A DNA stretch of 64,000 nucleotides from Candidatus Latescibacterota bacterium (GTDB lineage Bacteria > Latescibacterota > UBA2968). Under the pieces are notes generated by a model, which was not told where the DNA came from, searched no databases, and worked only from the letters and a program-made list of their open reading frames with translations. This document shows positions 7,013 through 21,141 of this stretch, piece after piece (the first letter of the stretch is position 1; every line of letters starts with the position of its first letter). The translations under genes were made by a program, and so were the position numbers. Where the stretch lies: assembly GCA_965222605.1 (NCBI GenBank), contig OZ244960.1, positions 1,888,001-1,952,000 on the forward strand, read 5' to 3'.

Positions 7013-9718
7013 ATGGCCGATTCTGTCGCACCAGGTACATTTCGCGATACCGATCCCATCGAAACCGAAGAATGGATCGAATCCCTGGCTTATGTCCTGC
7101 AACGCGGTGGGCCAGAGCGCGTGCGCTATTTGCTCGACCGCCTCGAACAAGAAGCCCAGGAAAGTCTGAGCGTTGACATTCCCTTCGCATCCCATACACC
7201 TTATGTCAACACCATCCCGCGCGACAAGCAACTGCCCTATCCGGGTGACCGAGAAATTGAGCGCCGCATCAAAAGTCTCGTGCGCTGGAATGCCATGGCT
7301 ATGGTTACCCGCGCCAACAAAGAAGCCGATGGCATTGGCGGTCACATCTCCACCTTTGCATCGGCTGCCACGCTATATGAAGTGGGTCAAAATCACTTCT
7401 TCAAAGCACCCAATGGCGATTTCTCCGGAGATCAGGTCTTCTTTCAAGGCCATGCTTCACCCGGCATGTATGCCCGCGCCTTTCTCGAAGGCCGTTTGAG
7501 CACCGAATACCTCGAAAACTTCCGCCGAGAACTCCGCAATCCCGGCGGCCTGTCTTCCTATCCACACCCTTATCTCATGCCCGACTTCTGGCAATTTCCC
7601 ACCGTCTCAATGGGACTTGGCCCACTCATGGGCATCTACCAGGCCCGCTACAACCGCTACCTCGAAGACCGCGGCCTCAAATCGACTCGCGATTCCAAAG
7701 TCTGGGTCTTCGTTGGCGACGGCGAAACAGACGAACCCGAAACCCTCGGCGCCATTAGTCTGGCAACCCGCGAACAACTCGACAACCTCATCTTTGTGAT
7801 CAATTGCAACCTGCAACGCCTCGACGGTCCCGTGCGCGGCAATAGCAAAATCATTCAAGAACTCGAACAAGTCTTTCGAGGCGCTGGCTGGAATGTCATC
7901 AAAGTTATATGGGGTGACGATTGGGACGCACTTCTCGATAAAGACACCCAGGGCCTGCTTCAGGAACGCATGGAAGAAGTCGTCGATGGTCAATACCAGA
8001 AATACACCGTCGAATCCGGCGAATACATCCGCCGCGACTTTTTTGGCACCCATCCCGACCTGCTCAAAATGGTCGAACACCTCTCGGACGAACAACTCCA
8101 AAAATTGCGTCGCGGGGGTCACGATCCCGAAAAAGTGTACGCCGCATTTAAAGCCGCTGTGGAACACAAGGGCGCACCAACTGTTATCCTGGCCAAGACC
8201 ATTAAGGGCTATGGCCTGGGCGAAGCCGGCGAAGGCCGCAACATGACCCACCAGCAAAAAAAGCTCGAAGAAGACGAGATGCGCGAATTTAAGCGGCGCT
8301 TTGACATCCCCATCTCCGATAGCGAAGTGGGCAAAGCACCCTTTTATCGTCCCCCCGACGACAGCCCCGAAATGCAGTATTTGCTACAACGCCGACGCGA
8401 CCTCGGCGGCTATTTGCCCAGCCGAAGCGTTCGGGCCAAACCTATCCAAGCACCCTCACGCGACGTATTTGACGAAGCCTTCAAAGGTACAGGTGACCGC
8501 CAGGCCTCTACAACAATGGCTTTTGCACGCCTGTTTGCCAAACTCGCCCGAGACAAAGACATCGGCAAACTACTCGTCCCCATCATCCCGGACGAAGCCC
8601 GCACCTTTGGTATGGATTCCCTCTTTCGGCAACTCGGCATCTACTCGCACATGGGGCAAATATACGAACCCGTTGACGCGGGCAACATCAGCTACTATCG
8701 AGAAGCGCAAGACGGCCAAATCCTCGAAGAAGGCATCAACGAAGCCGGTGCCATGTCCTCATTCATCTGCGCTGGCACAGCTTATGCCACGCACGGCGTC
8801 AACACCATCCCATTCTACATCTATTATTCCATGTTCGGTTTCCAGCGCGTGGGCGACCTCATGTGGTTGGCCGGCGATATTCGCTGCAAGGGCTTTCTAT
8901 TGGGCGGTACAGCCGGGCGCACCACACTCAACGGCGAAGGTCTCCAACACGAAGATGGGCACAGCCACATTCTGGCCTCATCCGTTCCCAATTGTATCGC
9001 CTACGATCCGGCTTATGCTTACGAAATTGCCATCATCATCCAGGACGGCATTCGACGCATGTACCAGGAACAAGAAGATGTTTATTATTACATAACCCTG
9101 GGCAATGAAAACTACGAACATCCCCCCATGCCCAAAGGCGTTGAAGAAGGCATTGTCAAAGGCATTTATCCGCTCAAGACGCACGAAATGCAACAGGGCC
9201 AGCACAAAGTTCAGCTCTTTGGCAGTGCATCCATCCTCCGCGAAACCCTGCGTGCGCAAGAAATTCTCGCCGCCGAATACAATATTTCCGCCGACGTGTG
9301 GAGCGCCACCTCATACAAGGAATTGCGACGAGACGCGCTTGAAGCTGAGCGGTGGAACATGCTACACCCAACGCGGCGGCGAAAAAAGCCGTATATCGTC
9401 AAAGTGCTCGAAAAAACCGATGGCCCAATAGTCGCCGCATCCGATTACATGAAATCCCTGCCCGAAATGATCCGCCCCTGGGTACCCGAAGATATGACCG
9501 TACTCGGCACAGATGGATTTGGGCGCAGCGACACGCGCCAGGCTCTGCGCCGGCATTTTGAAGTTGACGCCGAGTGCATTGCTGTGGCCGCGCTTTACGC
9601 CCTGGCCAAACAGGGCAAAATCAAACGCGAACAAGTCGCCACAGCCATCGACGAACTCGGCATTGATCCGGCGAAAGTCGATCCCGTATCGGCAGGCCCC
9701 ATCACGACGTATTATTAG
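7013..9718 (+). CDS. aceE: Pyruvate dehydrogenase E1, homodimeric type
   Basis: DPIETEEW, GGHISTFAS, QGHASPG, FPTVSMGLGP, GDGETDE TPP motif, LGTDGFGRSD. Confidence 0.97.
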   Translation: MADSVAPGTFRDTDPIETEEWIESLAYVLQRGGPERVRYLLDRLEQEAQESLSVDIPFASHTPYVNTIPRDKQLPYPGDREIERRIKSLVRWNAMAMVTRANKEADGIGGHISTFASAATLYEVGQNHFFKAPNGDFSGDQVFFQGHASPGMYARAFLEGRLSTEYLENFRRELRNPGGLSSYPHPYLMPDFWQFPTVSMGLGPLMGIYQARYNRYLEDRGLKSTRDSKVWVFVGDGETDEPETLGAISLATREQLDNLIFVINCNLQRLDGPVRGNSKIIQELEQVFRGAGWNVIKVIWGDDWDALLDKDTQGLLQERMEEVVDGQYQKYTVESGEYIRRDFFGTHPDLLKMVEHLSDEQLQKLRRGGHDPEKVYAAFKAAVEHKGAPTVILAKTIKGYGLGEAGEGRNMTHQQKKLEEDEMREFKRRFDIPISDSEVGKAPFYRPPDDSPEMQYLLQRRRDLGGYLPSRSVRAKPIQAPSRDVFDEAFKGTGDRQASTTMAFARLFAKLARDKDIGKLLVPIIPDEARTFGMDSLFRQLGIYSHMGQIYEPVDAGNISYYREAQDGQILEEGINEAGAMSSFICAGTAYATHGVNTIPFYIYYSMFGFQRVGDLMWLAGDIRCKGFLLGGTAGRTTLNGEGLQHEDGHSHILASSVPNCIAYDPAYAYEIAIIIQDGIRRMYQEQEDVYYYITLGNENYEHPPMPKGVEEGIVKGIYPLKTHEMQQGQHKVQLFGSASILRETLRAQEILAAEYNISADVWSATSYKELRRDALEAERWNMLHPTRRRKKPYIVKVLEKTDGPIVAASDYMKSLPEMIRPWVPEDMTVLGTDGFGRSDTRQALRRHFEVDAECIAVAALYALAKQGKIKREQVATAIDELGIDPAKVDPVSAGPITTYY

Positions 9719-9754
9719 TTTCTGGACATGCTTGTTCAATAGAGGTTCACACCA

Positions 9755-12700
9755 ATGAACACAGTTGACCGGCCAAACAGAGACGCGCTCAATAGTGCGT
9801 TGGACATCTACCGCGACGCCATGCGCCCGTTTATTGTCCGATGCCTGAAGAAGATTCGAGGCACACAGGTCGAAGATGTGATACGCAACGCGTTAAATGA
9901 CCGGCAGGCGGAGCAGTTCAGCCAAAACCTGCGTCAGAACGATAATATTGAAGCTGCTATAGACATCGATGAGTTCCCATTGCTCATCAGTAGAAACTGG
10001 CGCGACATTTTCTGGGAGCAGTTTGATGGGGAAATGACCGTGCAGAATAGGCTATGGCTGATTAAGGAGGCACGGGACAAAGCAGCGCATCCCGGGCAGC
10101 AGGATATGGACGCAGAGTACGTCCGAACCAATCTGTATCAAATCGTCGATGTGCTCGACAAAATCAATGTACCGACACAGAAGCAGGCAGTAGAAAAGAT
10201 CAGGGATCAACTCGTCAACCCTGCCAGTCAAAGCGATCTTGCTATCGCACCGGCACAGGAGCAGAGCGAACCCACAACGCAACCCTCCCGTTCAAGTGGC
10301 AACCTCACACCCTGGCGCGAAGTGATTCGACCCAATACAGATGTTCAGCAGGGAATTTTTCAGGAAGCAGAGTTTGCAGCAGACTTGCAGCAGGTATATG
10401 ATGGACGCGCCAGTGCCACAAATTACGGCAACCCGGTCAGTTTCTTCAATCACACGTATATCACCCCAGGCATCCGCACATTACTGGTAAACACGTTAAA
10501 GCGGCTTAGCGGCAATGGTGGCGATCCAGTTATCCAAACCAAAACGGGCTTCGGCGGAGGCAAGACCCACAGCCTGATCGCGCTCTATCACCTGGTGAAC
10601 AGCACCGATGCCTTGACCAATCCTACTGGAAATGGGCAATCCGAGCAGACCTACAATGAAATACACGGCTTGATGGAAGAGGCTGGGCTGGACACAAGCA
10701 GCGGTATTCAGGCTCGCGTCGCCGTGCTCGATGGGACGTATCTTTCATCCACCGATACAACAAAGACCAGAGAAAAGGACGACCCGCTAAATACACTGTG
10801 GGGGATGATGGCTTACCAGTTGGGTGGACAGGAGGCTTACGACATCGTAGGTCAAGCCGCACGCCAAGGCACAGCACCCGGCGGTGCTCAACTCGATCAG
10901 CTATTCGAACATGTCGCACCCTGTGTCATTCTTATTGACGAACTTGTAGCGTATGTACGCAATGCTGAAAGCGCACAGGACAACATTTACACCTTCGTCC
11001 ATGCACTCACCCAATCTGTCCGCAGGAACGACAAAACTGCTCTGGTTGTAACCCTGCCCGAAAGCAGCATTGAGGCGGGAAGCGATGCCGGTATGGAAGC
11101 CCTCAGTCGGCTTGAGCACCTCCTGGGTCGCATCGAAGCCGTGTGGGAACCCCTTGAAGTCAACGAGGCATTTGAAGTGGTGCGCCGACGGCTCTTTGGC
11201 AATGTTATAGACGAAGCGGAAAGAGATCGCACCTGCGAAAGATTCTCGAGGATGTACAATTCTCGAGACTACCCTCAAGGAACCAGTGAACAGCGTTATT
11301 TGGAACGCATGAAGGCGTGTTATCCCATTCACCCTGAGATATTCGACCGCCTCTATGAGGACTGGTCTGCTATTCCTCAGTTCCAACGCACGCGCGGCGT
11401 ACTTCGGATGATGGCACATTGCGTCAGCCGCCTGTATCTCAACAGCGATTCTTCTCCGCTGATCATGCCGGGCAATCTGACCTTAAGCGATGCAGCATTG
11501 GCCAACGAATTTGTCAGGTTGCTTGGTAGCCAATGGAGTCCAGTCCTATCTGAGGTAGATAGTGACGGCTCCAGGACCGACAATATAGACCGTTCTTACC
11601 AACGATTTGCCAATGTCGGAGGCGCAGCGCGGCGCATAGCTCGTGCCATATTTCTCGGCAGTTCCACAAGCGGTGCCATGAAGGGTATTGATGCCCGCCA
11701 GATTCGCCTGGGCGTCGTCCAACCCGGACAGGGCGTCTCGCTCTATAACGAAGCCCTCAATCGCATGAGCGGCGACCTCTACTATCTCTACAGCAGCGAC
11801 GACCGGTACTATTTTCACGTAGAGGAAAACCTCAATAAAGTCGTCACAGATCGTGCGGGCGCATTGAACAATAGAGAAATCAACGAACACATAGTCAATG
11901 AAATACAAGAGGCTGTCAGACGTCAATCGCAAGTTATAATATGTCCAGATGATTCCAGTGCTGTGCCCGAATCGGATGAGGTGCGCCTGGTGATCCTGCC
12001 GCCTGACAAACCCCTGCCAAGCAGGTCAAGGGAACGCGACGACGCCACACCAGAGGCATTGCACATCCTCCAGAACCGCGGCGACGCAAGTCGGATTCGC
12101 AGAAACACCCTGCTCTTCCTGACCGCCAAGAATGACGAAATTCGCACCCTGCGCAATGCGGTCAGGCAATATCTGGCCTGGCACTCCATCGTCAATGGCG
12201 CAAATCGGCTCGAAAACCTCTCAGGCGACCGTCTAAGACAGGCCCAAAACAGCATCAGAACAGCGGGATCAGAGATACGGACCTCTCTGGTCAGTGCCTA
12301 CCGCTGGGCCATGGCACCCGTGCAAGATGACCCGCAAAAAGCCGAATACCGAATGAACGAATTGCAGATCAATGCCCAGGATACCGGTGAGATTATCCAG
12401 AGTGCGTTCAATATATTTATCAGAGAAGATGCTCTCGTCGAAAACATATCTCCTTCCGCACTTACCAGTATGCTGAATCAATACGTGTGGAAAAATGAGA
12501 CCTACCGCGACCACATCGATATGGATACCCTGTGGAATATGATGACGAATAATGTTTACATGCATCGTCTGCGGAATAAGGACGTTCTGATAAGATGCAT
12601 TGAGCAAGGCGTGACTGAGCGCGAATTCGGATATGCCGCAAGTCACTATAAAGACGATTACAAGGGTCTCCGTTTTGGCGAACCAATGTCTGATGTGCCA

Positions 12701-13096
12701 ATTATAGCAGATAGCGATTCAGGGCTTTTGGTCAATCCCGAAATGGCCCTACTCATAAAGGAAGAAACACCAGAGGAAGAAACGCCGACGCCAACTGACG
12801 ACACAGAGACCTACACCACCGAAGAACCTACCGAAACCGACCATTCTGTAACACCACCAACACAGCGCGGTCCCAGGCACATCACTGCCACCAAGACGAT
12901 GCAGAGCGATATTTCCCTGGATGATGTCAACCTATTGCGCGAAGAGATTATCCGTAACCTGCGCGACGATGGCGGGGAAATAACCATTAGCATTACCATC
13001 AATGCCAAAAAATTAGATGGCTTCTCTGAAAGTATTGCTCGCTCCGTGCGAGAGAACAGCACCCAGCTTAGTATTGATTTTGAACAAAAGCTATGA
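9755..13096 (+). CDS. DUF499 AAA+ ATPase with N-terminal Swt1-like HEPN domain
   Basis: PWREVIRP...EFAADL, Walker A TGFGGGKTHSLIALYH, Walker B ILIDE, YPIHPE, FQRTRGVLR; N-terminal RDKAAH (Rx4H). Confidence 0.88.
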   Translation: MNTVDRPNRDALNSALDIYRDAMRPFIVRCLKKIRGTQVEDVIRNALNDRQAEQFSQNLRQNDNIEAAIDIDEFPLLISRNWRDIFWEQFDGEMTVQNRLWLIKEARDKAAHPGQQDMDAEYVRTNLYQIVDVLDKINVPTQKQAVEKIRDQLVNPASQSDLAIAPAQEQSEPTTQPSRSSGNLTPWREVIRPNTDVQQGIFQEAEFAADLQQVYDGRASATNYGNPVSFFNHTYITPGIRTLLVNTLKRLSGNGGDPVIQTKTGFGGGKTHSLIALYHLVNSTDALTNPTGNGQSEQTYNEIHGLMEEAGLDTSSGIQARVAVLDGTYLSSTDTTKTREKDDPLNTLWGMMAYQLGGQEAYDIVGQAARQGTAPGGAQLDQLFEHVAPCVILIDELVAYVRNAESAQDNIYTFVHALTQSVRRNDKTALVVTLPESSIEAGSDAGMEALSRLEHLLGRIEAVWEPLEVNEAFEVVRRRLFGNVIDEAERDRTCERFSRMYNSRDYPQGTSEQRYLERMKACYPIHPEIFDRLYEDWSAIPQFQRTRGVLRMMAHCVSRLYLNSDSSPLIMPGNLTLSDAALANEFVRLLGSQWSPVLSEVDSDGSRTDNIDRSYQRFANVGGAARRIARAIFLGSSTSGAMKGIDARQIRLGVVQPGQGVSLYNEALNRMSGDLYYLYSSDDRYYFHVEENLNKVVTDRAGALNNREINEHIVNEIQEAVRRQSQVIICPDDSSAVPESDEVRLVILPPDKPLPSRSRERDDATPEALHILQNRGDASRIRRNTLLFLTAKNDEIRTLRNAVRQYLAWHSIVNGANRLENLSGDRLRQAQNSIRTAGSEIRTSLVSAYRWAMAPVQDDPQKAEYRMNELQINAQDTGEIIQSAFNIFIREDALVENISPSALTSMLNQYVWKNETYRDHIDMDTLWNMMTNNVYMHRLRNKDVLIRCIEQGVTEREFGYAASHYKDDYKGLRFGEPMSDVPIIADSDSGLLVNPEMALLIKEETPEEETPTPTDDTETYTTEEPTETDHSVTPPTQRGPRHITATKTMQSDISLDDVNLLREEIIRNLRDDGGEITISITINAKKLDGFSESIARSVRENSTQLSIDFEQKL

Positions 13097-14016
13097 AATA
13101 CTATTTAACCCGTGGAACCTTTGGAGCGACCGATCTTGAAATCGATGAAAACGACTACGAGGGCTACAACGAATCAAATAAGATACTCACAAGCTGTTTG
13201 TCGTTTGAAAAAAGCTATGAAATCCTGATCTTAAACTACATCGATCTGGAAAATGAGCGGTTATCATGGGCAACGCTTGAGATGGTAAGAGTCGTGCCGA
13301 CAGATGACTTTTTGAACGCGACACTCTCTTTAGATCGGCGAATGATAAACTTTTTATCAACGGCTCGTCTGCATATTGAACATCTTCAAAAACGGGGAGG
13401 AGACTGCGTGAGCGGTCAGTCCATTGAAGATGTCAAAGCTGTCATTAAATGTTTCTGCGATACCGAGAAGGCCAATAAGCCTGAATATAAGTTCATGTGG
13501 GACCTCCGAAATGAGGTGCTGCACTCGAGCTTACCAACTCGCTGGGTCAGTTTCTCTTCAAATCGGACGAACCCGTTTGATGATCCAAATTCAAAATTCG
13601 AGTATTCGCTAAACTTTGGATTGTTGAAATCGTTAGCCATGGGTTTTAAGCAGAACGAACTCGAGTCCATATCAAGCAATGACAAAATCGATTTGATGTC
13701 GGTTAGCAGGGTTTATATGGAATCACTCAGCACTATTCACGTAAAGTTTAGAGATTACATCGCAGAGTCGGTTTCTCAAGCGCGTAGCAAAATAGAAGAA
13801 GCGTTCCATCGGTACAAAAAAGTGTGCGAAGATAACCTAAATGGCCTGTATCTTTTGAAAGTCAATGACTCGTCTGATATTGTAGAAAAGCCATACTTGG
13901 TAGAACAGTCATACTTGTCTTTGTTCCATGATGATCGGCGTATTCAACTGCAAAAAAAGAATCGCAAGCTCGTCAACTTGCGTAATAGCCATGTAACTGG
14001 GAAACAGGCCGAGTGA
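13093..14016 (+). CDS. Hypothetical helical protein, putative HEPN-like RNase
   Basis: ATGA overlap with the DUF499 gene; NFLSTARL...LRNEVLH contains Rx4H. Confidence 0.6.
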   Translation: MKYYLTRGTFGATDLEIDENDYEGYNESNKILTSCLSFEKSYEILILNYIDLENERLSWATLEMVRVVPTDDFLNATLSLDRRMINFLSTARLHIEHLQKRGGDCVSGQSIEDVKAVIKCFCDTEKANKPEYKFMWDLRNEVLHSSLPTRWVSFSSNRTNPFDDPNSKFEYSLNFGLLKSLAMGFKQNELESISSNDKIDLMSVSRVYMESLSTIHVKFRDYIAESVSQARSKIEEAFHRYKKVCEDNLNGLYLLKVNDSSDIVEKPYLVEQSYLSLFHDDRRIQLQKKNRKLVNLRNSHVTGKQAE

Positions 14017-14122
14017 CGAGGGATGAACGGGTATTTCCTGTCAGAAGAATCTATGAAGTATGATAAATTACTATGCCGAAAATCGTGATAACGACTAACC
14101 GCATTAATGAAGAAAGAATGTT

Positions 14123-16930
14123 ATGACTACCCAACCCCAATACCGCCGTAAACTCATCGAAGTTGACCTACCACTGGATGATATTAACCGCGAATCCGCA
14201 CGCGAAAAGTCCATCCGGCACGGCCATCCCTCGACCCTGCACTTGTGGTGGGCACGCCGGCCCTTGGCCACCTGCCGTGCCGTCATTTTTGCCAGTATGG
14301 TAGATGACCCTTCCGAATGTCCCGACGAGTTTCCCGACGAAGAGACGCAACGCATTGAGCGCGAGCGGCTGCATGGGATCATCAAAGAACTGGTTAAGTG
14401 GGAGAATACGGACGAGAGCAAACCCGATGTGAAGGTACTCATAGCGGAAGCGCGGTACGAAATTGCTCGCTCAGTGGCACGCACACACGGCGAAACTGCA
14501 CCTAACGATCCGGCTAAAGTGCTACGCTATCTGAACAACAAGGCTCTACCCATCTACGATCCCTTCGCTGGCGGTGGCTCTATACCCCTTGAAGCGCAAC
14601 GGCTTGGACTACGTGCCATTGGCTCCGATCTCAACCCGGTGGCTGTCCTCATCAACAAGGCATTGATTGAACTTCCACACAAATTCAGAAATCGTCCACC
14701 CGTCAATCCCGATGCTGATTCGATGGGCATGACCGTGGGCAAGGGCAGAAGGGCACAGCGCGTCCCCTGGCGTGGTGTGGCAGGACTCGCAGACGATATC
14801 CGCTACTACGGCCAGTGGATGCGCGAAGAGGCGTATAAACGTATCGGTCATTTCTATCCAATGGTAAAACTGTCCGATGGTAGCGAGGCTACCATAATCG
14901 CGTGGCTGTGGGCGCGAACTGTTCCTTGCCCTAATCCAGCCTGCGGGATAAACATGCCGCTTATGCGAACATTTCAGTTGTCAAAGAAGCGCGGCAACGC
15001 GCACTGGACGAGGCCCATTGTTGATCGAGAAACAAAGACCATATCGTGGATCGTACAGGACAATTCCAATGGCGTTCCAACCGGCACGGTGGATCGCAAC
15101 GGCGCAACCTGCCTCGGCTGCGGCGGCGCGGTAAAGCTGACTTATGTGCGCGAACAGGCGCGGGCCGGTAACATGGACGAGGTTATGACGACGATAGTCG
15201 CAGAAGGCGACCGCAAGCGGCTATTCCTATCGCCCACTGACGAGCATATTCAAGCAGCGTTGAATGCAGAACCAGGATGGCGACCAAGCGGAAACTTACC
15301 TGAAAGGGCGTTGAGCTTTAGAGTACAGGCGTATGGTTTTACGAATTGGTACCAGCTTTTCACGGAAAGGCAATTGACTGCGCTGACTACGTTTAGCGAC
15401 TTGGTGCCTGAGGTTGGCGAACAGGCGATAAAAGACGGGGCTGATGGGGCGTATGCCGATACTATCTGTACTTACCTTGCATTGGCTATTGGAAGAGTTG
15501 CGAACGGGAGTTGTGGATTCACAGTGTGGAACGCCCCTGGAGAAAAAATTGAGGGGGTTTTTTCACGCCAGGCAATTCCAATGGCTTGGGACTTTCCTGA
15601 AGTCAATCTATTTTCAAGCTCAACGAAAAACTGGTTAGACCTCGTTGGTGCGATTAGCAAGGTTGTAGAGCGTCTGCCCGCTGATGTGAACGCAGGAGAA
15701 GCATATCAAGCCGATGCATCTACCACAATTTACGCCGAAAGTGGCCCGGTGATCGTTACCGACCCTCCTTATTACGACAACATCGGCTACGCCGATTTGT
15801 CCGATTTTTTTTATGCGTGGCTACGCCCGATGCTTAGGGACATCTATCCCGACCTATTTGCAGGAATTCTTGTTCCTAAAGATGAGGAAATGATTGCTAC
15901 TCCGTTCCGGTTTGAGAATCCACGCGAAAGATTCGAGGACTTGCTGAATAAGACTTTGCGATTGATACGGGAGCGCTGCTCGCCGGAGTTTCCATCGTCC
16001 ATTTTCTACGCCTACAAGCAACAAGAAAAGAAGAGGGGCGATAGAACATCAACAGGTTGGGAAACGATGCTTACGGCACTCGTCTCGGCTGGCTTTCAAT
16101 TAATCGGCACCTGGCCGATGCGGACTGAGCGTCCAACCGGTGTCAAAGTAGGTGCCAATGTGCTCGCTTCGTCCGTCATCCTCGTCTGCCGTCCGCGTCC
16201 AGATGATGCACCTGTTGCCACGCGCCGTCAATTCTTTGATGCACTGGAGAAAGAACTGCCTGAGGCCCTTGACCAACTCACGCAAGAAGGGCATATCGCC
16301 CCGACCGATCTCGCGCAAGCCGCCATCGGACCAGGGATGCAGATTTACTCGCGCTACAGCCGCGTAGAGACCATAAGTGGCGAGCCGGTGCCGGTGCGCG
16401 AAGCCTTGGCAGCTATCAACAAAGCCATTGCCGATTACGACGAACGGCAAGAGGGTGACCTGGATTCGGAGAGCCGCTTCTGCATGGATTGGCTGAAAAC
16501 TTATGGCTATGGAGAAGGACAATACGGCGAGGCAGAGACGCTGGCACGCGCCAAAAATGTAGCCATCAGCAACTTAAATTTGTACCGCTTGCTCACTGCT
16601 GAAGGAGGCAGGGTGAAATTGCTGCCAATTGACGAGTTTGGAGACAGCCGACCACTGACCCTGGGCAATATGACGGCCTGGGAAGGATGTTTCCGAATGG
16701 CATATCATATGAACCGCGAGGATGGTGGAGGCATTAAAGGCGCGGGCATGGTTGCGCGAGCGATGGACGGCAATGTGGAATCTATCGAACGACTGGCGCG
16801 CATCCTCTACGGACATTATGACCGCAAAGGCGACTCTCAAAACGCGGTTATCTTCAACAACCTCGTCACGTCCTGGCAGGATATTATCACGGAAATGCAG
16901 AATGAAGGTCAAAGAACGCTGGAGATATGA
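14123..16930 (+). CDS. DUF1156-domain adenine-specific DNA methyltransferase
   Basis: KLIEVDLPL, LHLWWARRPL, DPFAGGGSIP (SAM binding), CPNPAC Zn ribbon, TDPPYYDN catalytic motif. Confidence 0.92.
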   Translation: MTTQPQYRRKLIEVDLPLDDINRESAREKSIRHGHPSTLHLWWARRPLATCRAVIFASMVDDPSECPDEFPDEETQRIERERLHGIIKELVKWENTDESKPDVKVLIAEARYEIARSVARTHGETAPNDPAKVLRYLNNKALPIYDPFAGGGSIPLEAQRLGLRAIGSDLNPVAVLINKALIELPHKFRNRPPVNPDADSMGMTVGKGRRAQRVPWRGVAGLADDIRYYGQWMREEAYKRIGHFYPMVKLSDGSEATIIAWLWARTVPCPNPACGINMPLMRTFQLSKKRGNAHWTRPIVDRETKTISWIVQDNSNGVPTGTVDRNGATCLGCGGAVKLTYVREQARAGNMDEVMTTIVAEGDRKRLFLSPTDEHIQAALNAEPGWRPSGNLPERALSFRVQAYGFTNWYQLFTERQLTALTTFSDLVPEVGEQAIKDGADGAYADTICTYLALAIGRVANGSCGFTVWNAPGEKIEGVFSRQAIPMAWDFPEVNLFSSSTKNWLDLVGAISKVVERLPADVNAGEAYQADASTTIYAESGPVIVTDPPYYDNIGYADLSDFFYAWLRPMLRDIYPDLFAGILVPKDEEMIATPFRFENPRERFEDLLNKTLRLIRERCSPEFPSSIFYAYKQQEKKRGDRTSTGWETMLTALVSAGFQLIGTWPMRTERPTGVKVGANVLASSVILVCRPRPDDAPVATRRQFFDALEKELPEALDQLTQEGHIAPTDLAQAAIGPGMQIYSRYSRVETISGEPVPVREALAAINKAIADYDERQEGDLDSESRFCMDWLKTYGYGEGQYGEAETLARAKNVAISNLNLYRLLTAEGGRVKLLPIDEFGDSRPLTLGNMTAWEGCFRMAYHMNREDGGGIKGAGMVARAMDGNVESIERLARILYGHYDRKGDSQNAVIFNNLVTSWQDIITEMQNEGQRTLEI

Positions 16931-17307
16931 GTGTGAAACACGATAGCAGTTCAACAACGCCCTTCGCCCTGAAGTACCAGCTTGAGCAGGATATCCGTCC
17001 GTTCAATCGGGATAGCGTGCGCAACTTACCAAAAGATCGTTCAGGCGTGTACGCAATGTGGCTTCCCATCGGTGACGAAGGCGATTACGACTGTTTGTAC
17101 GTCGGCATGTCTCGGGTCTGTGTGCGGCAACGCCTCTTGCAGCACCTCTCCGATGAAGACAATCCCGAACTTCGACGCCAGCTTCGCATGTTCCGCGACA
17201 TCGTCCAGTTCTCAGCAGCATTTACCCAGGGTGTGCAACAGACTCGTGCGCTGGAGGCCTTGGTCATCCATGACTGGCAACCAGAAACGAATAGGATCCA
17301 CAAGTGA
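16927..17307 (+). CDS. Small GIY-YIG nuclease-like protein
   Basis: SGVY...LYVG..S..VRQRLLQH...LE..VI...P..N pattern; ATGA overlap with the methylase gene. Confidence 0.75.
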   Translation: MSVKHDSSSTTPFALKYQLEQDIRPFNRDSVRNLPKDRSGVYAMWLPIGDEGDYDCLYVGMSRVCVRQRLLQHLSDEDNPELRRQLRMFRDIVQFSAAFTQGVQQTRALEALVIHDWQPETNRIHK

Positions 17308-17388
17308 ACGGTGGACACAGCCTGAGAGAGGTGAGGAAGTGAAGGTAGGATCGGTGCCTGAGTATCCTATCAAGACAAATGGCAGTAC

Positions 17389-17450
17389 AAAAAAATAGAC
17401 GCCCCTTGCGGAGCGTCGGGCCAACGATACTATCGTTGGGGTAGTAAAAG
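17389..17450 (-). ncRNA. Putative small RNA, copy 1 (two hairpins + U tract)
   Basis: Minus strand: CCAACGAT-AGT-ATCGTTGG hairpin, GACGCTCC-GCAA-GGGGCGTC hairpin, T run; upstream TTGACG-N16-TAGATT at 17480-17453. Confidence 0.6.
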
Positions 17451-17495
17451 AAAATCTACTAAAATATGTCATTCCGTCAAAAAAAGTTCTATAAT

Positions 17496-17551
17496 AAAGA
17501 AACGCCCCTTTCGGGGCGTCGGCCCAACGATACTACTCGTTGAGGTGGTAT
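17496..17551 (-). ncRNA. Putative small RNA, copy 2, divergent from the NYN gene
   Basis: Minus strand: CTCAACGA-GTAGTA-TCGTTGGG, ACGCCCC-GAAA-GGGGCGT, TTCTTT; upstream TTGACT-N17-TATTAT at 17584-17556. Confidence 0.6.
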
Positions 17552-17619
17552 GATAATAATACTCAACGTAATATAATAAGTCAATATTTGTTTCACTTTT
17601 TTTCTGGCAGGAGAGGCCA

Positions 17620-18243
17620 TTGATACAGCGAGTGTCGGTGTACATTGACGGGTTCAATCTCTACTACGGCCTCAGATCCAAGGGCTGGCGGCGTTACTAC
17701 TGGCTTGACCTTCGTCGTCTGGCTGAGAAACTGCTAATCCCTGACCAGCATTTGGTGGCGGTCAGGTATTTTACCGCTAAGATTCTGCATCAGACCGACG
17801 ACCCAAAAAAAAAGAGACGGCAGAATACCTACCTGGAAGCACTGGCTACGCTTCCAGACCTACACATCCATTACGGTTACTACCTTTCAAAGAACAGAAC
17901 CTGCTCGCAATGTGGCGCGACCAGGCAGACCTACGAGGAAAAAATGACAGATGTAAATATTGCCGTTGAGTTACTCAGCGACGCTCAGGATGATGCTTTC
18001 GATACGGCAATCATCATCTCTGGCGATAGTGATTTGTCAGGCCCGATAAGTTCTGTCTGCCAACGTTACCCAAAGAAACGGGTAATTGTAGCCTTCCCGC
18101 CAGAACGCAGTTCTTTCCAGTTGCAGCAGATGGCAACTGCATATTTTACCATAAGCCGCAAGAAACTCAGTGACAGTCAATTACCGGATCGGATCACCAA
18201 GACTGATGGCTACGTCCTCAGCAAGCCTCTGAAATGGCGTTAA
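17620..18243 (+). CDS. NYN-domain (PIN-like, LabA/DUF88) ribonuclease
   Basis: VYIDGFNLYYG, YFTA, EEKMTDVNIA, IISGDSDL acidic motifs; CSQC insert; GGAGAGG RBS and TTG start. Confidence 0.9.
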   Translation: MIQRVSVYIDGFNLYYGLRSKGWRRYYWLDLRRLAEKLLIPDQHLVAVRYFTAKILHQTDDPKKKRRQNTYLEALATLPDLHIHYGYYLSKNRTCSQCGATRQTYEEKMTDVNIAVELLSDAQDDAFDTAIIISGDSDLSGPISSVCQRYPKKRVIVAFPPERSSFQLQQMATAYFTISRKKLSDSQLPDRITKTDGYVLSKPLKWR

Positions 18244-18254
18244 TGACAGAACCT

Positions 18255-18313
18255 AAAAAAGAAACGCCCCTTTCGGGGCGTCGGGCCAACGATACTATCG
18301 TTGGGGTGGTAGA
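18255..18313 (-). ncRNA. Putative small RNA, copy 3, downstream of and convergent with the NYN gene
   Basis: Same two hairpins + T tract; upstream TTGACG-N16-TAGATT at 18344-18317. Confidence 0.6.
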
Positions 18314-18463
18314 AGAAATCTACTTAAGTATGTAATTTCGTCAAGAAAAAGTTCTATTGGCGAATCGAAATTTGGCACGCAAGAATGCAATGACATAAAG
18401 TGGTAATATTCTTACATTTTATATTCCTTATGTCTATACCCCGTTGCATAGAAAGGAAATCTT

Positions 18464-19714
18464 GTGGCAACTGAATTCAAACTACCCGATCTCGGCGAAG
18501 GTGTAGAAGCCGGCGATGTTGTCGGCGTACTCGTTGCCGAGGGCGACACTGTTGAAATCGATCAGGGCGTGGTCGAACTCGAAACCGACAAAGCCCTCGT
18601 CGAAGTACCCAGCAGTGTTGCTGGCACCGTCACAAAAATACACATTAGTGCCGGAGACCGCGTGCCCGTGGGCAGCTTATTGATCTCTGTTGAAGAAGAC
18701 GAAAAATCCGTCCCGACAGCCCCTGAGCCGGAAGCCGAAGCACCCGCACCAAAAGAAGAAACCCAAGTTGCCGAAGCACCCGCACCAACGCCTTCCAGGC
18801 CACCTGCCCCCACATTCAACGGCGACCCCATTCCCGCAGCGCCATCCACGCGGCGGCTCGCGCGAGAACTCGGCGTAGATCTCACCCAGGTCGCTGGCTC
18901 TGGACCCGGTGGACGCATCTCACAAGACGATATCAAAGCCGCTGTACGCAACCGGCAAACAGGTGGTTTCGCACCAACAGCACCCGTCGAATTGCCCGAC
19001 TTCTCGAGATGGGGCAACATCGAACGCCAACCCCTCAGCAAAGTTCGGCAGATTATTGCAAAAAACATGAGCCAGGCCTGGCAACAGGTGGCTCATGTCA
19101 CTCAATTTGATCGCGCAGACGTCACAGATCTCGAAGCATTTCGGCAGCGCAACAAAGAAAGAACCGAAGCTTATGGGGCCAAACTGACGCCGACCGTCCT
19201 CGCGCTAAAAGCAATCATCACCGCGCTTAAAACCTTTCCGCAATTCAACGCCAGCCTCGATGCCGGAGCCAATGAGATTATTCTCAAGCACTACTATAAC
19301 CTCGGCATCGCCGTTGACACCGAGCGCGGCTTACTCGTTCCCGTCATCAAAGACGTCGATCGCAAAGACATCCTAAAATTGGCTCTCGAACTCGGCGACA
19401 TCAGCAACCGCGCGCGCACCAACAAAATTGGCCTCGACGAATTACAAGGCGGCACATTCACCGTCACCAACCTGGGCAGCCTGGGCGTGGGCGAATTTAC
19501 CCCCATTGTCAATCACCCCGAAGTTGCAATTATGGGGCTCGGGCGTGCCAGAGAAGAAGCCACCGTGCGCGAAGGGCGCATCGAACCCCGACTCATCATG
19601 CCTCTGGCATTGTCTTATGATCACCGCGTTATTGACGGCGCCGACGGTGCGCGATTTATGCGAAAAATCGTCGATGCCCTCGAAAACCCAGAACTCATGC
19701 TCATGGGCGGATAA
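18464..19714 (+). CDS. aceF: Dihydrolipoamide acetyltransferase (PDH E2), single lipoyl domain
   Basis: ETDKA lipoyl site, PSTRRLARELGVDL E3-binding domain, SYDHRVIDGA; GTG start. Confidence 0.93.
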   Translation: MATEFKLPDLGEGVEAGDVVGVLVAEGDTVEIDQGVVELETDKALVEVPSSVAGTVTKIHISAGDRVPVGSLLISVEEDEKSVPTAPEPEAEAPAPKEETQVAEAPAPTPSRPPAPTFNGDPIPAAPSTRRLARELGVDLTQVAGSGPGGRISQDDIKAAVRNRQTGGFAPTAPVELPDFSRWGNIERQPLSKVRQIIAKNMSQAWQQVAHVTQFDRADVTDLEAFRQRNKERTEAYGAKLTPTVLALKAIITALKTFPQFNASLDAGANEIILKHYYNLGIAVDTERGLLVPVIKDVDRKDILKLALELGDISNRARTNKIGLDELQGGTFTVTNLGSLGVGEFTPIVNHPEVAIMGLGRAREEATVREGRIEPRLIMPLALSYDHRVIDGADGARFMRKIVDALENPELMLMGG

Positions 19715-19728
19715 ACTGGAGAAATCAC

Positions 19729-21141
19729 ATGGCCGAAACGCACAAAACCGATCTCCTCGTCATAGGCGGCGGTCCCGGCGGATATACAGCGGCCTTTCGC
19801 GCTGCTGACCTGGGTCTGCATGTCACCCTCGTCAATGCCGACGACAACCTCGGTGGCACCTGCTTATTGCGCGGGTGCATCCCATCCAAAGCCCTGCTCC
19901 ACGTTGCCGAACTCATCACCGAAGCCAGTGAAGCCAGAACTTATGGCCTCACCTTTGGCGATCCCAAAATCGATCTGGACGCCCTGCGTAGCTGGAAAGA
20001 CAACATCATCACCCGCCTCTCGACCGGTCTATCTGGCCTGGTGCGCCAGCGCAAAGTCACCCACCTGACGGGCTACGCGCAATTCGAGAATTCGCAAAGC
20101 GCGTCCATCACAGGTAATGGGGATATCGACCGCGTCGATTTTGAACACGCCATCATCGCCACGGGCTCACGCCCTGTCGTCCTCCCAATTTTCGCGCTCG
20201 ACACCCCGCGCATTTTGGACTCTACAACAGCGCTCGATCTCGACGAAATACCCAAAAGCCTTCTCGTCATTGGCGGAGGCATCATCGGTCTCGAACTCGG
20301 CAGTATTTATGCCGCATTGGGAAGTGCCGTCACAGTCGTCGAAATGACCGACACCCTCTTGCCCGGCACCGATCCCGATCTGGTCAAACCCCTCGAAACC
20401 CGATTGCGTCAGGCATTCAGCGCCATACACACCCGCACGCGCGTCACGCATATCGAAGAAGTCAATACCGGTATTGAAGTACACTGCGAAGGCGTAGGAT
20501 CGAAAATATCTGAAATATTCGACCGCGTCCTCCTCTGCATTGGCCGACGCCCAAATACGGATAATATTGGCCTTGAAAACACGGACATTGAACCCGATGA
20601 CCTCGGGTTCATCGAAGTCGATTCACAGATGCGAACAAACGATCCCCGCCTCTTTGCAATTGGCGACGCTATCCCAGGCCCCGGCCTTGCCCACAAAGCC
20701 GCGCACGAAGGCAAAATCGCCGCCGAAGTTCTCGCCGGTGAACCCGTGTCTTTTGACGCACTCATTCCCTCAGTTGTGTACACCGATCCCGAAATTGCAT
20801 GGGTGGGCCTGACCGAAACCGACGCCCGCGAACAAAACCGAAAAATCGATGTCGTACGCTTCCCCTGGGCTGCCCTGGGCAAAGCGCATGCAATTGGGCG
20901 CATCGAAGGCCAGACCAAGCTCATTGTCGATCCCTATACCCAGCGCGTGCTCGGCATGGGCATCGTGGGACCAAACGCGGGCGACCTCATCGCCGAAGGC
21001 GCGCTTGCCATTGAAATGGCTGCTGTTGCCGAAGACATTGCCCACACCATTCATCCCCACCCCTCGCTTGCCGAATCCATCGGCATTGCCGCTGATATTC
21101 ACCTCGGCTCCGCGACCGATGTGTACATGCCTAAAAAATAG
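19729..21141 (+). CDS. lpdA: Dihydrolipoamide dehydrogenase (E3)
   Basis: GGGPGGY, GGTCLLRGCIPSK, GGGIIGLE, HPHPSLAE. Confidence 0.96.
   Translation: MAETHKTDLLVIGGGPGGYTAAFRAADLGLHVTLVNADDNLGGTCLLRGCIPSKALLHVAELITEASEARTYGLTFGDPKIDLDALRSWKDNIITRLSTGLSGLVRQRKVTHLTGYAQFENSQSASITGNGDIDRVDFEHAIIATGSRPVVLPIFALDTPRILDSTTALDLDEIPKSLLVIGGGIIGLELGSIYAALGSAVTVVEMTDTLLPGTDPDLVKPLETRLRQAFSAIHTRTRVTHIEEVNTGIEVHCEGVGSKISEIFDRVLLCIGRRPNTDNIGLENTDIEPDDLGFIEVDSQMRTNDPRLFAIGDAIPGPGLAHKAAHEGKIAAEVLAGEPVSFDALIPSVVYTDPEIAWVGLTETDAREQNRKIDVVRFPWAALGKAHAIGRIEGQTKLIVDPYTQRVLGMGIVGPNAGDLIAEGALAIEMAAVAEDIAHTIHPHPSLAESIGIAADIHLGSATDVYMPKK

What the first reader, a model, noticed from the sequence alone, without database searches (positions are those of the whole stretch)
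17389..18356. NYN ribonuclease surrounded by three self-contained small-RNA genes: candidate RNA-antitoxin (type III-like) TA/defence system
Seen in sequence: three copies of a ~60-nt minus-strand unit (17389-17450, 17496-17551, 18255-18313). Each has its own sigma70-like promoter (TTGACG-16-TAGATT, TTGACT-17-TATTAT, TTGACG-16-TAGATT), a CCAACGA/TCGTTGG hairpin and a GC-rich hairpin followed by a U tract. Differences between copies preserve structure only on the minus strand: the loops GCAA and GAAA are both GNRA, and two stem substitutions give U-G wobbles that would be A-C mismatches on plus. The spacer of the copy 2 promoter is unrelated to the others while -35/-10 are kept. Known: NYN is a PIN-fold RNase, and RNase toxins held in check by adjacent structured RNAs exist (ToxIN, AbiF). 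Inference: the RNA is an antitoxin, decoy or guide for NYN. No protein antitoxin ORF is adjacent, and the module sits in a defence-like island.
Basis: partly seen in the sequence, partly recalled or inferred. Interest (0 to 1): 0.88.

Follow-up and report, generated by a model that had tools for sequence, protein, structure and literature searches.

The report
Conserved small RNA partnered with NYN nuclease
A predicted RNA-cutting enzyme in a bacterial anti-phage island is flanked by three copies of a tiny RNA gene, a pairing seen across many phyla, and the RNA probably acts as the enzyme's antidote.

Summary
Three ~60-nt minus-strand units (17389-17449, 17492-17553, 18254-18314) each have a sigma70-like promoter, a hairpin and an intrinsic terminator. 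They are the only copies in the 6.3-Mb genome and match nothing in Rfam.

The flanked gene is an NYN nuclease matching PADLOC's HEC-09, beside HmaB and HmaC.

The RNA lies upstream on the opposite strand in 78 of 80 metagenome loci chosen only by NYN similarity. Both helices show compensatory changes. Promoter type follows the host phylum.

In 151 genomes of the phylum, all 15 with an intact NYN have the RNA. Seventeen more have the RNA alone or beside NYN wrecks. Twenty-two phage contigs carry the RNA, none with NYN nearby. Sister NYN clades carry a related RNA in ToxIN-like order: promoter, RNA, terminator, NYN.

Best reading: an RNA-antidote (type III-like) toxin-antitoxin or defence module. 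NYN toxicity, RNA-protein binding and transcription were not shown. The one published test of HEC-09 found no phage protection. I found no report of the RNA in my literature searches.

The parts
17389..17449 (-). sRNA gene copy 1: C-rich 5' tail, hairpin 1 with loop UAGUA, terminator hairpin with GCAA loop, U tract
   Evidence: R1 89.7 bits; fold -24.6 kcal/mol, z -4.4; terminator scan
17453..17480 (-). sigma70-like promoter of copy 1 (TTGACG-16-TAGATT)
   Evidence: the same -35/-10 layout is seen in orthologous loci
17492..17553 (-). sRNA gene copy 2. It lies at the conserved family position, divergent from NYN, with its 5' end 66 nt before the NYN start.
   Evidence: R1 86.5 bits; fold -26.1 kcal/mol, z -4.1
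17556..17584 (-). sigma70-like promoter of copy 2 (TTGACT-17-TATTAT). Its spacer is unrelated to those of copies 1 and 3.
17620..18243 (+). NYN-domain nuclease gene (207 aa), HEC-09 type, putative toxin or effector
   Evidence: PF01936 E 2.1e-12; PADLOC HEC-09 E 1.8e-90, full length; model pLDDT 93.8; best folds 2qip and MARF1 NYN; invariant D10, N13, E107, K108, D111, D136 in 45 orthologues
18254..18314 (-). sRNA gene copy 3, just downstream of the NYN stop and convergent with NYN
   Evidence: R1 92.5 bits; fold -25.2 kcal/mol, z -5.1
18317..18344 (-). sigma70-like promoter of copy 3 (TTGACG-16-TAGATT)
   Evidence: 85% identical to the promoter region of copy 1 (family D2)
9755..16930 (+). 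Context: Hma defence genes. HmaC is at 9755-13096, an unassigned 307-aa ORF at 13093-14016, and HmaB (DUF1156 methylase) at 14123-16930.
   Evidence: PADLOC HmaC E 7e-250 and HmaB E 8e-293; NCBIfam DUF499 and DUF1156 anti-phage models match below their curated cut-offs

Best explanation
The ~57-60-nt RNA and the NYN nuclease form a two-component module of the toxin-antitoxin or abortive-infection kind.

The RNA is made in excess from its own consensus promoter and ends at its own terminator. Here there are three gene copies. It keeps the NYN RNase harmless.

My preferred mechanism, which is inferred and not shown, is direct type III-like binding of the protein. The contacts would be the conserved unpaired nucleotides: the 5' tail ACC(C/A)C, the pentaloop UAG(C/U)A, the CCC linker and the invariant G.U/A-U/C-G base of helix 2.

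When host transcription collapses during phage infection, the short RNA would decay and free NYN to cut RNA. Phages that carry a copy of the RNA could supply the antidote themselves.

Shown here:
- The RNA genes are real and structured.
- The RNA is almost always linked to NYN.
- The module sits among defence genes.
- NYN is not found without the RNA, but the RNA is found without NYN.

Inferred: NYN toxicity, RNA-protein binding, the trigger and the phage counter-measure.
For: 1. Linkage that does not depend on the RNA for selection.
- R2 finds the RNA in 78 of 80 metagenome loci chosen only by NYN similarity (49-65% identity). It is always upstream and on the opposite strand.
- R1 finds it beside all 12 orthologues of at least 50% identity in relatives.
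- All 76 RNA copies in NYN-bearing pattern loci lie on the strand opposite NYN.

2. A structured RNA.
- On alignment A5, 99.3% of cells pair and 11 of 15 pairs change on both sides. Shifted-register controls pair in 34-51% of cells. 0 of 500 shuffles reach the observed percentage paired, cells changed on both sides, pair types or covariation score; 2 of 500 reach the observed count of pairs with a two-sided change.
- The loop, tail and junction stay constant while the stems vary.

3. Selected expression.
- A TTGACA-type -35 box is seen across phyla.
- It is replaced by the TAnnTTTG type in the Bacteroidota and Ignavibacteria loci L031, L033, L059 and L060.

4. Asymmetry of the kind seen with antitoxins.
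- In 151 genomes of the phylum, 15 have an intact NYN and all 15 have the adjacent RNA.
- Seventeen further genomes have the RNA only. In several of these it sits beside NYN fragments or a stop-containing NYN.
- A contig of run X1 joins copy 1 to copy 3 and so lacks NYN.

5. Phages.
- 22 viral contigs carry the RNA (27-70 bits) among phage genes. None of the 22 has NYN within 2 kb.
- None of the 22 is among the 36 NYN-bearing viral contigs.

6. Sister NYN clades carry a related RNA on the same strand, ending 10-40 nt before the start codon. The order is promoter, RNA, terminator, Shine-Dalgarno (SD) site, NYN. An antisense role cannot explain both orientations.

7. Multi-copy arrays occur: here, and in L016, L018, L038, L050, L053, L104 and L108.

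8. NYN has an intact acidic site and no room for a protein antitoxin.
Against: - No experiment or read-level RNA data shows the RNA. Only Logan contigs from RNA libraries were available, and these cannot give strand, ends or level.
- NYN toxicity is unknown. In the only published test, HEC-09 was cloned with about 150 bp of upstream DNA. It gave no protection against the phages tried and is not among the two systems (HEC-03, HEC-04) that the methods name as apparently toxic (passages read).
- Intact RNA genes occur in genomes with no NYN orthologue (3 of 5 checked). They also occur next to cas3, methylases and transposases. The RNA may therefore have a NYN-independent role.
- In phages the element mostly sits like an ordinary 3' terminator of a gene.
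- The pattern scans were biased towards the canonical sequence.
- The model-made alignments lean towards the modelled structure.
- Related genomes are not independent samples.
Confidence: 0.55

Rival explanations
1. Expression-level control (type I-like or transcriptional interference). The sRNA gene acts on NYN's transcript or promoter, not on the protein. Its strong promoter fires against read-through from the upstream co-directional gene and occupies the 40-110 nt that must hold the NYN 5' UTR. Alternatively, the sRNA pairs with a long NYN leader that runs through the sRNA gene.
For: - In the HEC-09 clade the RNA is always antisense-oriented and tightly spaced.
- The -35 box of the sRNA lies only about 15-45 nt from the NYN start, so the two transcription units must overlap.
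- In the upstream sequences the preceding ORF often appears, by eye, to end just before the sRNA terminator on the NYN strand; among the longest upstream ORFs, 28 of 47 lie on the NYN strand. That terminator has no U tract on that strand.
- A contig from an RNA library spans sRNA copy 2 and the NYN start, 17496-17665. This is weak, because contigs do not show strand.
Against: - Complementarity between the sRNA and NYN mRNA from the -35 box to +60 is no better than shuffles. Mean z is 0.04, and 0 of 62 loci fall below -2.
- No conserved NYN-sense promoter lies beyond the sRNA gene.
- Sister clades have the related RNA on the same strand as NYN.
- Unpaired nucleotides are conserved across phyla and in phage copies whose stems differ. 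Pure cis-antisense action does not require that.
Confidence: 0.15
2. Positive partner. The sRNA is a cofactor, scaffold, activator or dedicated substrate that NYN needs in order to work as a ribonucleoprotein effector. It is not an inhibitor.
For: Near-obligate co-occurrence fits a cofactor as well as an antidote. The strongly conserved KGWRRYYW motif in NYN could be an RNA-binding surface (this is inference).
Against: - RNA genes outlive NYN: 17 genomes have the RNA only, some beside NYN wrecks.
- The RNA occurs in phages without NYN.
- Extra RNA copies and terminator-attenuated NYN in sister clades give RNA in excess over protein. That is the antidote logic.
- The constant sequence leaves no variable guide segment.
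Confidence: 0.15
3. Generic mobile punctuation. The element is mainly a portable promoter and terminator (insulator) cassette of defence islands and phages. It has no specific relation to the NYN protein.
For: - It sits at gene ends in phages, after endolysin, spanin and major-head genes.
- In NYN-less loci it sits next to cas3, methylases, an OLD-like ATPase and transposases (these were named by eye).
- Homologous recombination between copies deletes NYN.
Against: - It is present in 78 of 80 NYN loci at one fixed position.
- Genomes hold only 1-4 copies, not dozens.
- Hairpin 1, its loop and the 5' tail are conserved although a terminator does not need them.
- Related RNAs accompany distant NYN clades.
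Confidence: 0.1

Closest known systems
ToxIN and other type III toxin-antitoxin / abortive-infection systems (ToxN, CptN, TenpN with RNA antitoxins).
   Same: An endoribonuclease-type protein has no protein antitoxin and is tightly linked to a small structured RNA made in excess. The module lies in defence or plasmid contexts. In sister NYN clades the gene order is the same: promoter, RNA, terminator, toxin. RNA-only copies in phages recall the pseudo-ToxI escape phage (recalled).
   Different: The toxin fold is NYN/PIN-like, not the Kid/MazF-like ToxN fold. In this clade the RNA is a single unit with its own promoter and terminator on the opposite strand. It is not a tandem array processed by the toxin. 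Binding, processing and toxicity are untested.
HEC-09, Hma-embedded candidate defence gene (PADLOC-DB; Payne et al., bioRxiv 10.1101/2024.01.29.577857; passages read)
   Same: The protein is a full-length member (E 1.8e-90). It lies beside HmaB and HmaC. Its model resembles the MARF1 NYN domain, as in the paper.
   Different: The paper treats HEC-09 as a single gene. The words non-coding, ncRNA, small RNA and intergenic do not occur in its main text, and I could not see its supplements. The RNA partner described here is an addition. It may have been inside their construct, which included about 150 bp upstream.
Type I toxin-antitoxin systems with divergent sRNA genes (tisB/istR-1; SymE/SymR). 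Recalled.
   Same: A small antisense-oriented RNA gene with its own promoter lies next to the toxin gene.
   Different: The toxin is a 207-aa nuclease, not a small membrane peptide. No sRNA-mRNA complementarity above chance was found. Sister clades have the RNA in sense orientation.
VapBC and other PIN-domain toxin-antitoxin pairs (type II). Recalled.
   Same: The toxin is a PIN-like-fold RNase with a conserved acidic pocket.
   Different: There is no protein antitoxin gene. An RNA gene occupies the partner position.

Membership tests
NYN domain (Pfam PF01936) | Sequence match above the Pfam gathering score | tested here: met
   48.2 bits against a cut-off of 24.2, residues 4-177
NYN domain (Pfam PF01936) | PIN-like fold resembling solved NYN domains | tested here: met
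   Model pLDDT 93.8. Foldseek top hits are 2qip (E 2.6e-11) and MARF1 NYN 5yaa and 6fdl (E about 2e-5 to 1e-4).
NYN domain (Pfam PF01936) | Conserved acidic metal-binding residues | tested here: met
   D10, E107, D111 and D136 are invariant and D138 at least 90% conserved in 45 orthologues. Assigning them to the catalytic pocket is by analogy (recalled, and from the passage read).
HEC-09 (PADLOC candidate defence system) | Full-length match to the HEC-09 profile | tested here: met
   E 1.8e-90, protein 3-207 against profile 2-203 of 203
HEC-09 (PADLOC candidate defence system) | Embedded in or beside an Hma system | tested here: met
   HmaC and HmaB lie directly upstream in the window. Among the metagenome loci, 13 have HmaA, HmaB or HmaC next to the module. 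No HmaA was found among the 7 window ORFs scanned.
HEC-09 (PADLOC candidate defence system) | Anti-phage activity | not testable with these tools
   The source paper reports no protection against the phages tested.
Type III toxin-antitoxin (ToxIN-like) | RNA antitoxin gene upstream of the toxin on the same strand, separated by a terminator, usually as tandem repeats | tested here: not met
   In the window and the whole HEC-09 clade the RNA is on the opposite strand with its own promoter. The feature is met only in sister NYN clades.
Type III toxin-antitoxin (ToxIN-like) | Toxin of the ToxN/CptN/TenpN families | tested here: not met
   The fold is NYN. The ToxN fold is recalled, not compared here.
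Type III toxin-antitoxin (ToxIN-like) | The RNA binds and inhibits the toxin protein, and the toxin is growth-inhibitory | not testable with these tools
   Only indirect support is available: the presence asymmetry and the phage RNA-only copies.
Type I toxin-antitoxin | The antisense RNA base-pairs with the toxin mRNA | tested here: inconclusive
   No complementarity above shuffles was found from the -35 box to +60. The NYN 5' end is unknown, so a leader that overlaps the sRNA gene cannot be excluded.
Any Rfam 15 family | Covariance-model match | tested here: not met
   The window region at E up to 10 gave only chance-level hits. Thirteen loci of both clades and of phages at E up to 0.1 gave nothing on the RNA.

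The most novel reading that the evidence does not exclude
The NYN-sRNA pair is a large, ancient and unrecognised superfamily of RNA-antidote toxin systems. It spans at least ten phyla and occurs on plasmids and prophages, in two interchangeable architectures: a divergent sRNA gene, or a ToxIN-like leader RNA.

In this reading, phages have repeatedly captured the antidote RNA and placed it in the 3' ends of the genes upstream of it (endolysin, spanin and major-head genes in several contigs) as an RNA-mimic anti-defence. That would explain why HEC-09 looked inactive as a 'single gene'. It would also give a second natural example, and a widespread one, of RNA-based evasion of an abortive-infection toxin.
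Probability: 0.35. Interest if true: 0.9.

Novelty: new variant of a known kind. Interest (0 to 1): 0.8.

Why it matters
RNA-antitoxin (type III) systems are few and all use ToxN-like toxins. A NYN-fold nuclease held by a dedicated small RNA would add a new toxin fold and a new RNA family to that class.

It would recast the published single-gene candidate HEC-09 as a two-part system and suggest why the published test saw no defence. It would also point to phage-borne RNA decoys as a counter-defence.

The RNA is short and strongly conserved. It is present in a cultured, non-pathogenic host: Thermus oshimai JL-2 plasmid pTHEOS01. The idea can therefore be tested directly.

Tried and rejected
- Rfam searches found no family for the RNA.
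- The genome-wide repeat or REP idea is rejected. There are only three copies in the genome.
- I considered an integron attC or recombination-site reading from the sequence and dropped it. The palindrome is too short, and the promoters are conserved and adapted to the host.
- The sRNA-mRNA duplex test gave no signal. Mean z was 0.04, and 0 of 62 loci fell below -2.
- I found no conserved NYN-sense promoter beyond the sRNA terminator.
- Public RNA runs yielded only Logan contigs with low shares of the stretch (0.06-0.15). They give no strand, ends or expression level. Parts of the stretch without cover mean nothing.
- E. coli, Serratia and Salmonella small plasmids carry NYN paralogues of 33-38% identity. 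R2 and R3 gave no hit on L235 and L236, and R3 gave none on L300. The promoter and terminator scans of L235 and L236 showed no divergent sRNA unit. By eye, the leader of L235 has tail-plus-hairpin units. That is unverified.
- The two exceptions, L186 and L188, have only a 12-bit hit downstream and a different hairpin upstream. They remain unresolved.
- Earlier-findings look-ups by place and by sequence returned nothing.
- Six literature searches found no paper linking NYN to an RNA antitoxin or to an RNA motif.
- Complex prediction was not used, because it takes no RNA.
Full report
**1. The observation**

The window holds three copies of a ~60-nt unit on the minus strand: 17389-17449, 17492-17553 and 18254-18314. 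Copies 1 and 3 also share their promoter regions (85% identity).

The promoter and terminator scan finds one sigma70-like promoter and one intrinsic terminator per copy, all on the minus strand. Each minus-strand RNA folds into a 7-8-bp hairpin and a G+C-rich terminator hairpin. Energies are -24.6 to -26.1 kcal/mol and z-scores -4.1 to -5.1.

The 101-base query gave no other match below E = 1.9 in the 6.34-Mb genome. Model R2 finds only these three copies there. Rfam has no family for the RNA.

**2. The protein and its setting**

ORF 17620-18243 is an NYN domain protein (PF01936). It matches PADLOC's HEC-09 profile over its full length (E 1.8e-90). Its model (pLDDT 93.8) is closest to 2qip and to the MARF1 NYN domains. 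In 45 orthologues D10, N13, E107, K108, D111 and D136 are invariant, and the motif KGWRRYYW is nearly so.

HmaC (9755-13096) and HmaB (14123-16930) lie directly upstream. The whole island sits between aceE (7013-9718) and the E2 acyltransferase gene (18464-19714).

HEC-09 comes from Payne et al., bioRxiv 10.1101/2024.01.29.577857. I read passages only. One representative was cloned with about 150 bp of upstream DNA and gave no protection against the phages tested. The main text never uses the words non-coding, ncRNA, small RNA or intergenic. I could not see its supplements, which hold the cloned sequence.

**3. Link between RNA and NYN**

A covariance model built from the three copies (R1) found the RNA next to all 12 NYN orthologues of at least 50% identity in related genomes. 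It also found the RNA beside one NYN fragment. It gave no significant hit (one 12-bit match, E 0.72) at the six paralogue loci of 34-41% identity.

By record title these come from many phyla, including Latescibacterota, Chloroflexota, Proteobacteria, Planctomycetota, Bacteroidota/Ignavibacteria, Gemmatimonadota, Acidobacteriota and Verrucomicrobiota. Of the 80 loci with about 2 kb of flank, 42 had a near-full NYN, 11 had a fragment and 27 had none. All 76 RNA copies in NYN-bearing loci lie on the strand opposite NYN.

That scan is biased towards the canonical RNA, so I ran the converse test. I took 80 metagenome loci chosen only by NYN similarity (49-65% identity). Model R2 found the RNA in 78 of them, always upstream and on the opposite strand. 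The two exceptions, L186 and L188, are of one sequence type and remain unresolved.

**4. A real structured RNA under selection**

On the 60 distinct sequences of A5, 99.3% of cells pair, and 11 of 15 pairs show changes on both sides (6 of 7 in helix 1, 5 of 8 in helix 2). No shuffle of 500 reaches the observed percentage paired, number of cells changed on both sides, pair types or covariation score; 2 of 500 reach the observed count of pairs with a two-sided change. Shifted-register controls pair in only 34-51% of cells. A4 gives the same picture. These alignments were fitted to the model, which favours pairing. Even so, helix 1 was unconstrained in the pattern and takes CG, GC, AU and UA at one position.

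The unpaired parts stay constant: the tail ACC(C/A)C, the pentaloop UAG(C/U)A (GAGUA in one subgroup), the CCC linker, the G.U/A-U/C-G base of helix 2, and GUUUCUUUU.

Upstream of the RNA there is a TTGACA-type -35 box and a -10 box in most phyla. In the Bacteroidota and Ignavibacteria loci L031, L033, L059 and L060 the TAnnTTTG type replaces them (the motif name is recalled). A promoter that tracks its host's type argues for an expressed gene.

**5. Setting elsewhere**

I scanned 104 flanking ORFs of the metagenome loci against PADLOC, and 49 hit a defence family at E up to 1e-5.
- HmaA lies upstream in 6 loci, 4 of them strong matches.
- HmaB lies downstream in 10 loci and HmaC in 2.
- In five loci the module sits inside a type I-C CRISPR-Cas locus, with cas5c or cas8c downstream. 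cas3 is seen upstream in four of them.
- Other neighbours include DISARM genes, methylases, pAgo and AriA.

Thermus oshimai JL-2 plasmid pTHEOS01 carries the pair between a helicase-related gene and an IS4 transposase gene about 1.5 kb beyond NYN. The RNA is not among the listed features, though PLSDB tables list only protein genes.

**6. Asymmetry**

I searched one sample of 151 genomes of the phylum with R2 and with NYN.
- Fifteen genomes have an intact HEC-09-type NYN (at least 50% identity, full length, no stop). All 15 have the RNA beside it.
- Seventeen more genomes have the RNA without an intact NYN.
- In G019, G026 and G033 (within those 17), and at second loci of the NYN-bearing genomes G016, G018 and G035, a high-scoring RNA sits next to NYN fragments. 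In G032 the NYN carries a TAG stop.
- The 41-44% paralogues (G126, G150, G068) have no R2 hit.

Of five genomes holding a solitary RNA, one has an orthologue elsewhere, one has a 40% paralogue and three have none.

A 406-nt contig from run X1, an RNA library at 95-99% identity, joins 17412 to 18278. That allele has one RNA gene and no NYN.

Loss of NYN is thus tolerated, while NYN without the RNA is not seen. Related genomes are not independent, so I attach no p-value to these counts.

**7. Phages**

The same pattern finds 22 IMG/VR contigs, and all 22 score with R2 at 27-70 bits. None of the 22 has an NYN homologue within 2 kb. None is among the 36 NYN-bearing viral contigs found with the NYN profile, though that search depends on two peptide patterns.

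The flanking genes match phage families: DNA polymerase, ribonucleotide reductase, endolysin, Rz-like spanin, tail sheath and major head protein. In most of these contigs the RNA lies just 3' of a co-directional gene, with no obvious promoter of its own.

Comparing 53 of 80 cellular loci with 0 of 22 viral loci gives Fisher p = 4e-9. The loci are not independent. The 22 contigs hold 18 distinct RNA sequences.

**8. Sister clades**

Near NYN paralogues of about 29-47% identity, R2 and a third model R3 find a related RNA with a C-rich tail, a hairpin and a terminator. R3 was built from R2-aligned hits, so there is some circularity. This RNA lies on the same strand as NYN and ends 10-40 nt before the start codon.

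It occurs in 18 viral or prophage loci, in plasmids of Phaeobacter and Leptospira, in the 245-aa paralogues of the window's own genus (L027-L030) and in L232. The sequences show a promoter, the RNA, a U tract, an SD site and then ATG. This is the ToxIN gene order (recalled). R3 also scores the three window copies at 37-45 bits.

**9. Mechanism**

An antisense role on the NYN start region finds no support. No NYN-sense promoter is conserved beyond the sRNA gene. The -35 box of the sRNA lies only about 15-45 nt from the NYN start, so some transcriptional interplay is likely.

An antisense role also cannot hold for the co-directional clades. Nor does it explain why the loop, tail and junction are conserved in phage copies whose stems differ.

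I therefore prefer direct recognition of the RNA by NYN, with the RNA as antidote. My confidence in this reading, including the binding mechanism, is 0.55. My odds for the rivals are 0.15 for expression-level control, 0.15 for a positive cofactor and 0.1 for a generic promoter/terminator cassette.

**10. Novelty and caveats**

Six literature searches found no report of an RNA partner for NYN. Earlier notes of this scan describe similar NYN-plus-sRNA modules in other genomes. These are AI notes and do not count as independent evidence.

Nothing here shows transcription, binding or toxicity. The phage decoy idea rests on presence alone.

Noticed in passing
window 7013-21141: The defence island of about 8.7 kb (HmaC, a 307-aa ORF, HmaB, a 126-aa ORF, and the sRNA-NYN module) lies between aceE (E1) and the E2 and E3 genes of a pyruvate dehydrogenase cluster.
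   Followed up: partly
window 9755-16930: HmaC and HmaB are present, but no HmaA helicase was found among the seven ORFs I scanned. The 307-aa ORF at 13093-14016 between them has no Pfam, PADLOC or NCBIfam match.
   Followed up: no
window 16927-17307: A 126-aa ORF overlaps the HmaB stop. It has weak matches to the GIY-YIG-type excinuclease Cho (E 2.4e-5) and to PADLOC PDC-S14 (E 1.7e-6). It may be a small embedded nuclease.
   Followed up: no
window 17412 joined to 18278 (run X1): A contig from a related strain lacks the 865 bases that hold sRNA copy 2 and NYN. This looks like recombination between the flanking sRNA copies.
   Followed up: partly
L167, L168, L180, L181, L182: The sRNA-NYN module sits inside type I-C CRISPR-Cas loci. 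cas3 lies upstream in four of the five, and cas5c or cas8c lies downstream in all five. All genes run co-directionally with NYN.
   Followed up: partly
L235, L236, L300 (E. coli and Salmonella plasmids of 3.4-4.3 kb): Very small enterobacterial plasmids carry NYN paralogues of 33-38% identity. Neither RNA model hits them. By eye, the leader of L235 has two units of tail plus hairpin.
   Followed up: partly
G000:C1:6058127-6060011 (outside the window): The window's genome holds a second NYN paralogue in two pieces. Residues 3-101 and 105-206 of the query match about 1.3 kb apart.
   Followed up: no
L186 1330-1420 and L188: The only NYN orthologues without the RNA have a different long hairpin upstream on the opposite strand (CAGAAAAGCTGC...GCAGCTTTTCTG). 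This may be a replacement RNA.
   Followed up: no
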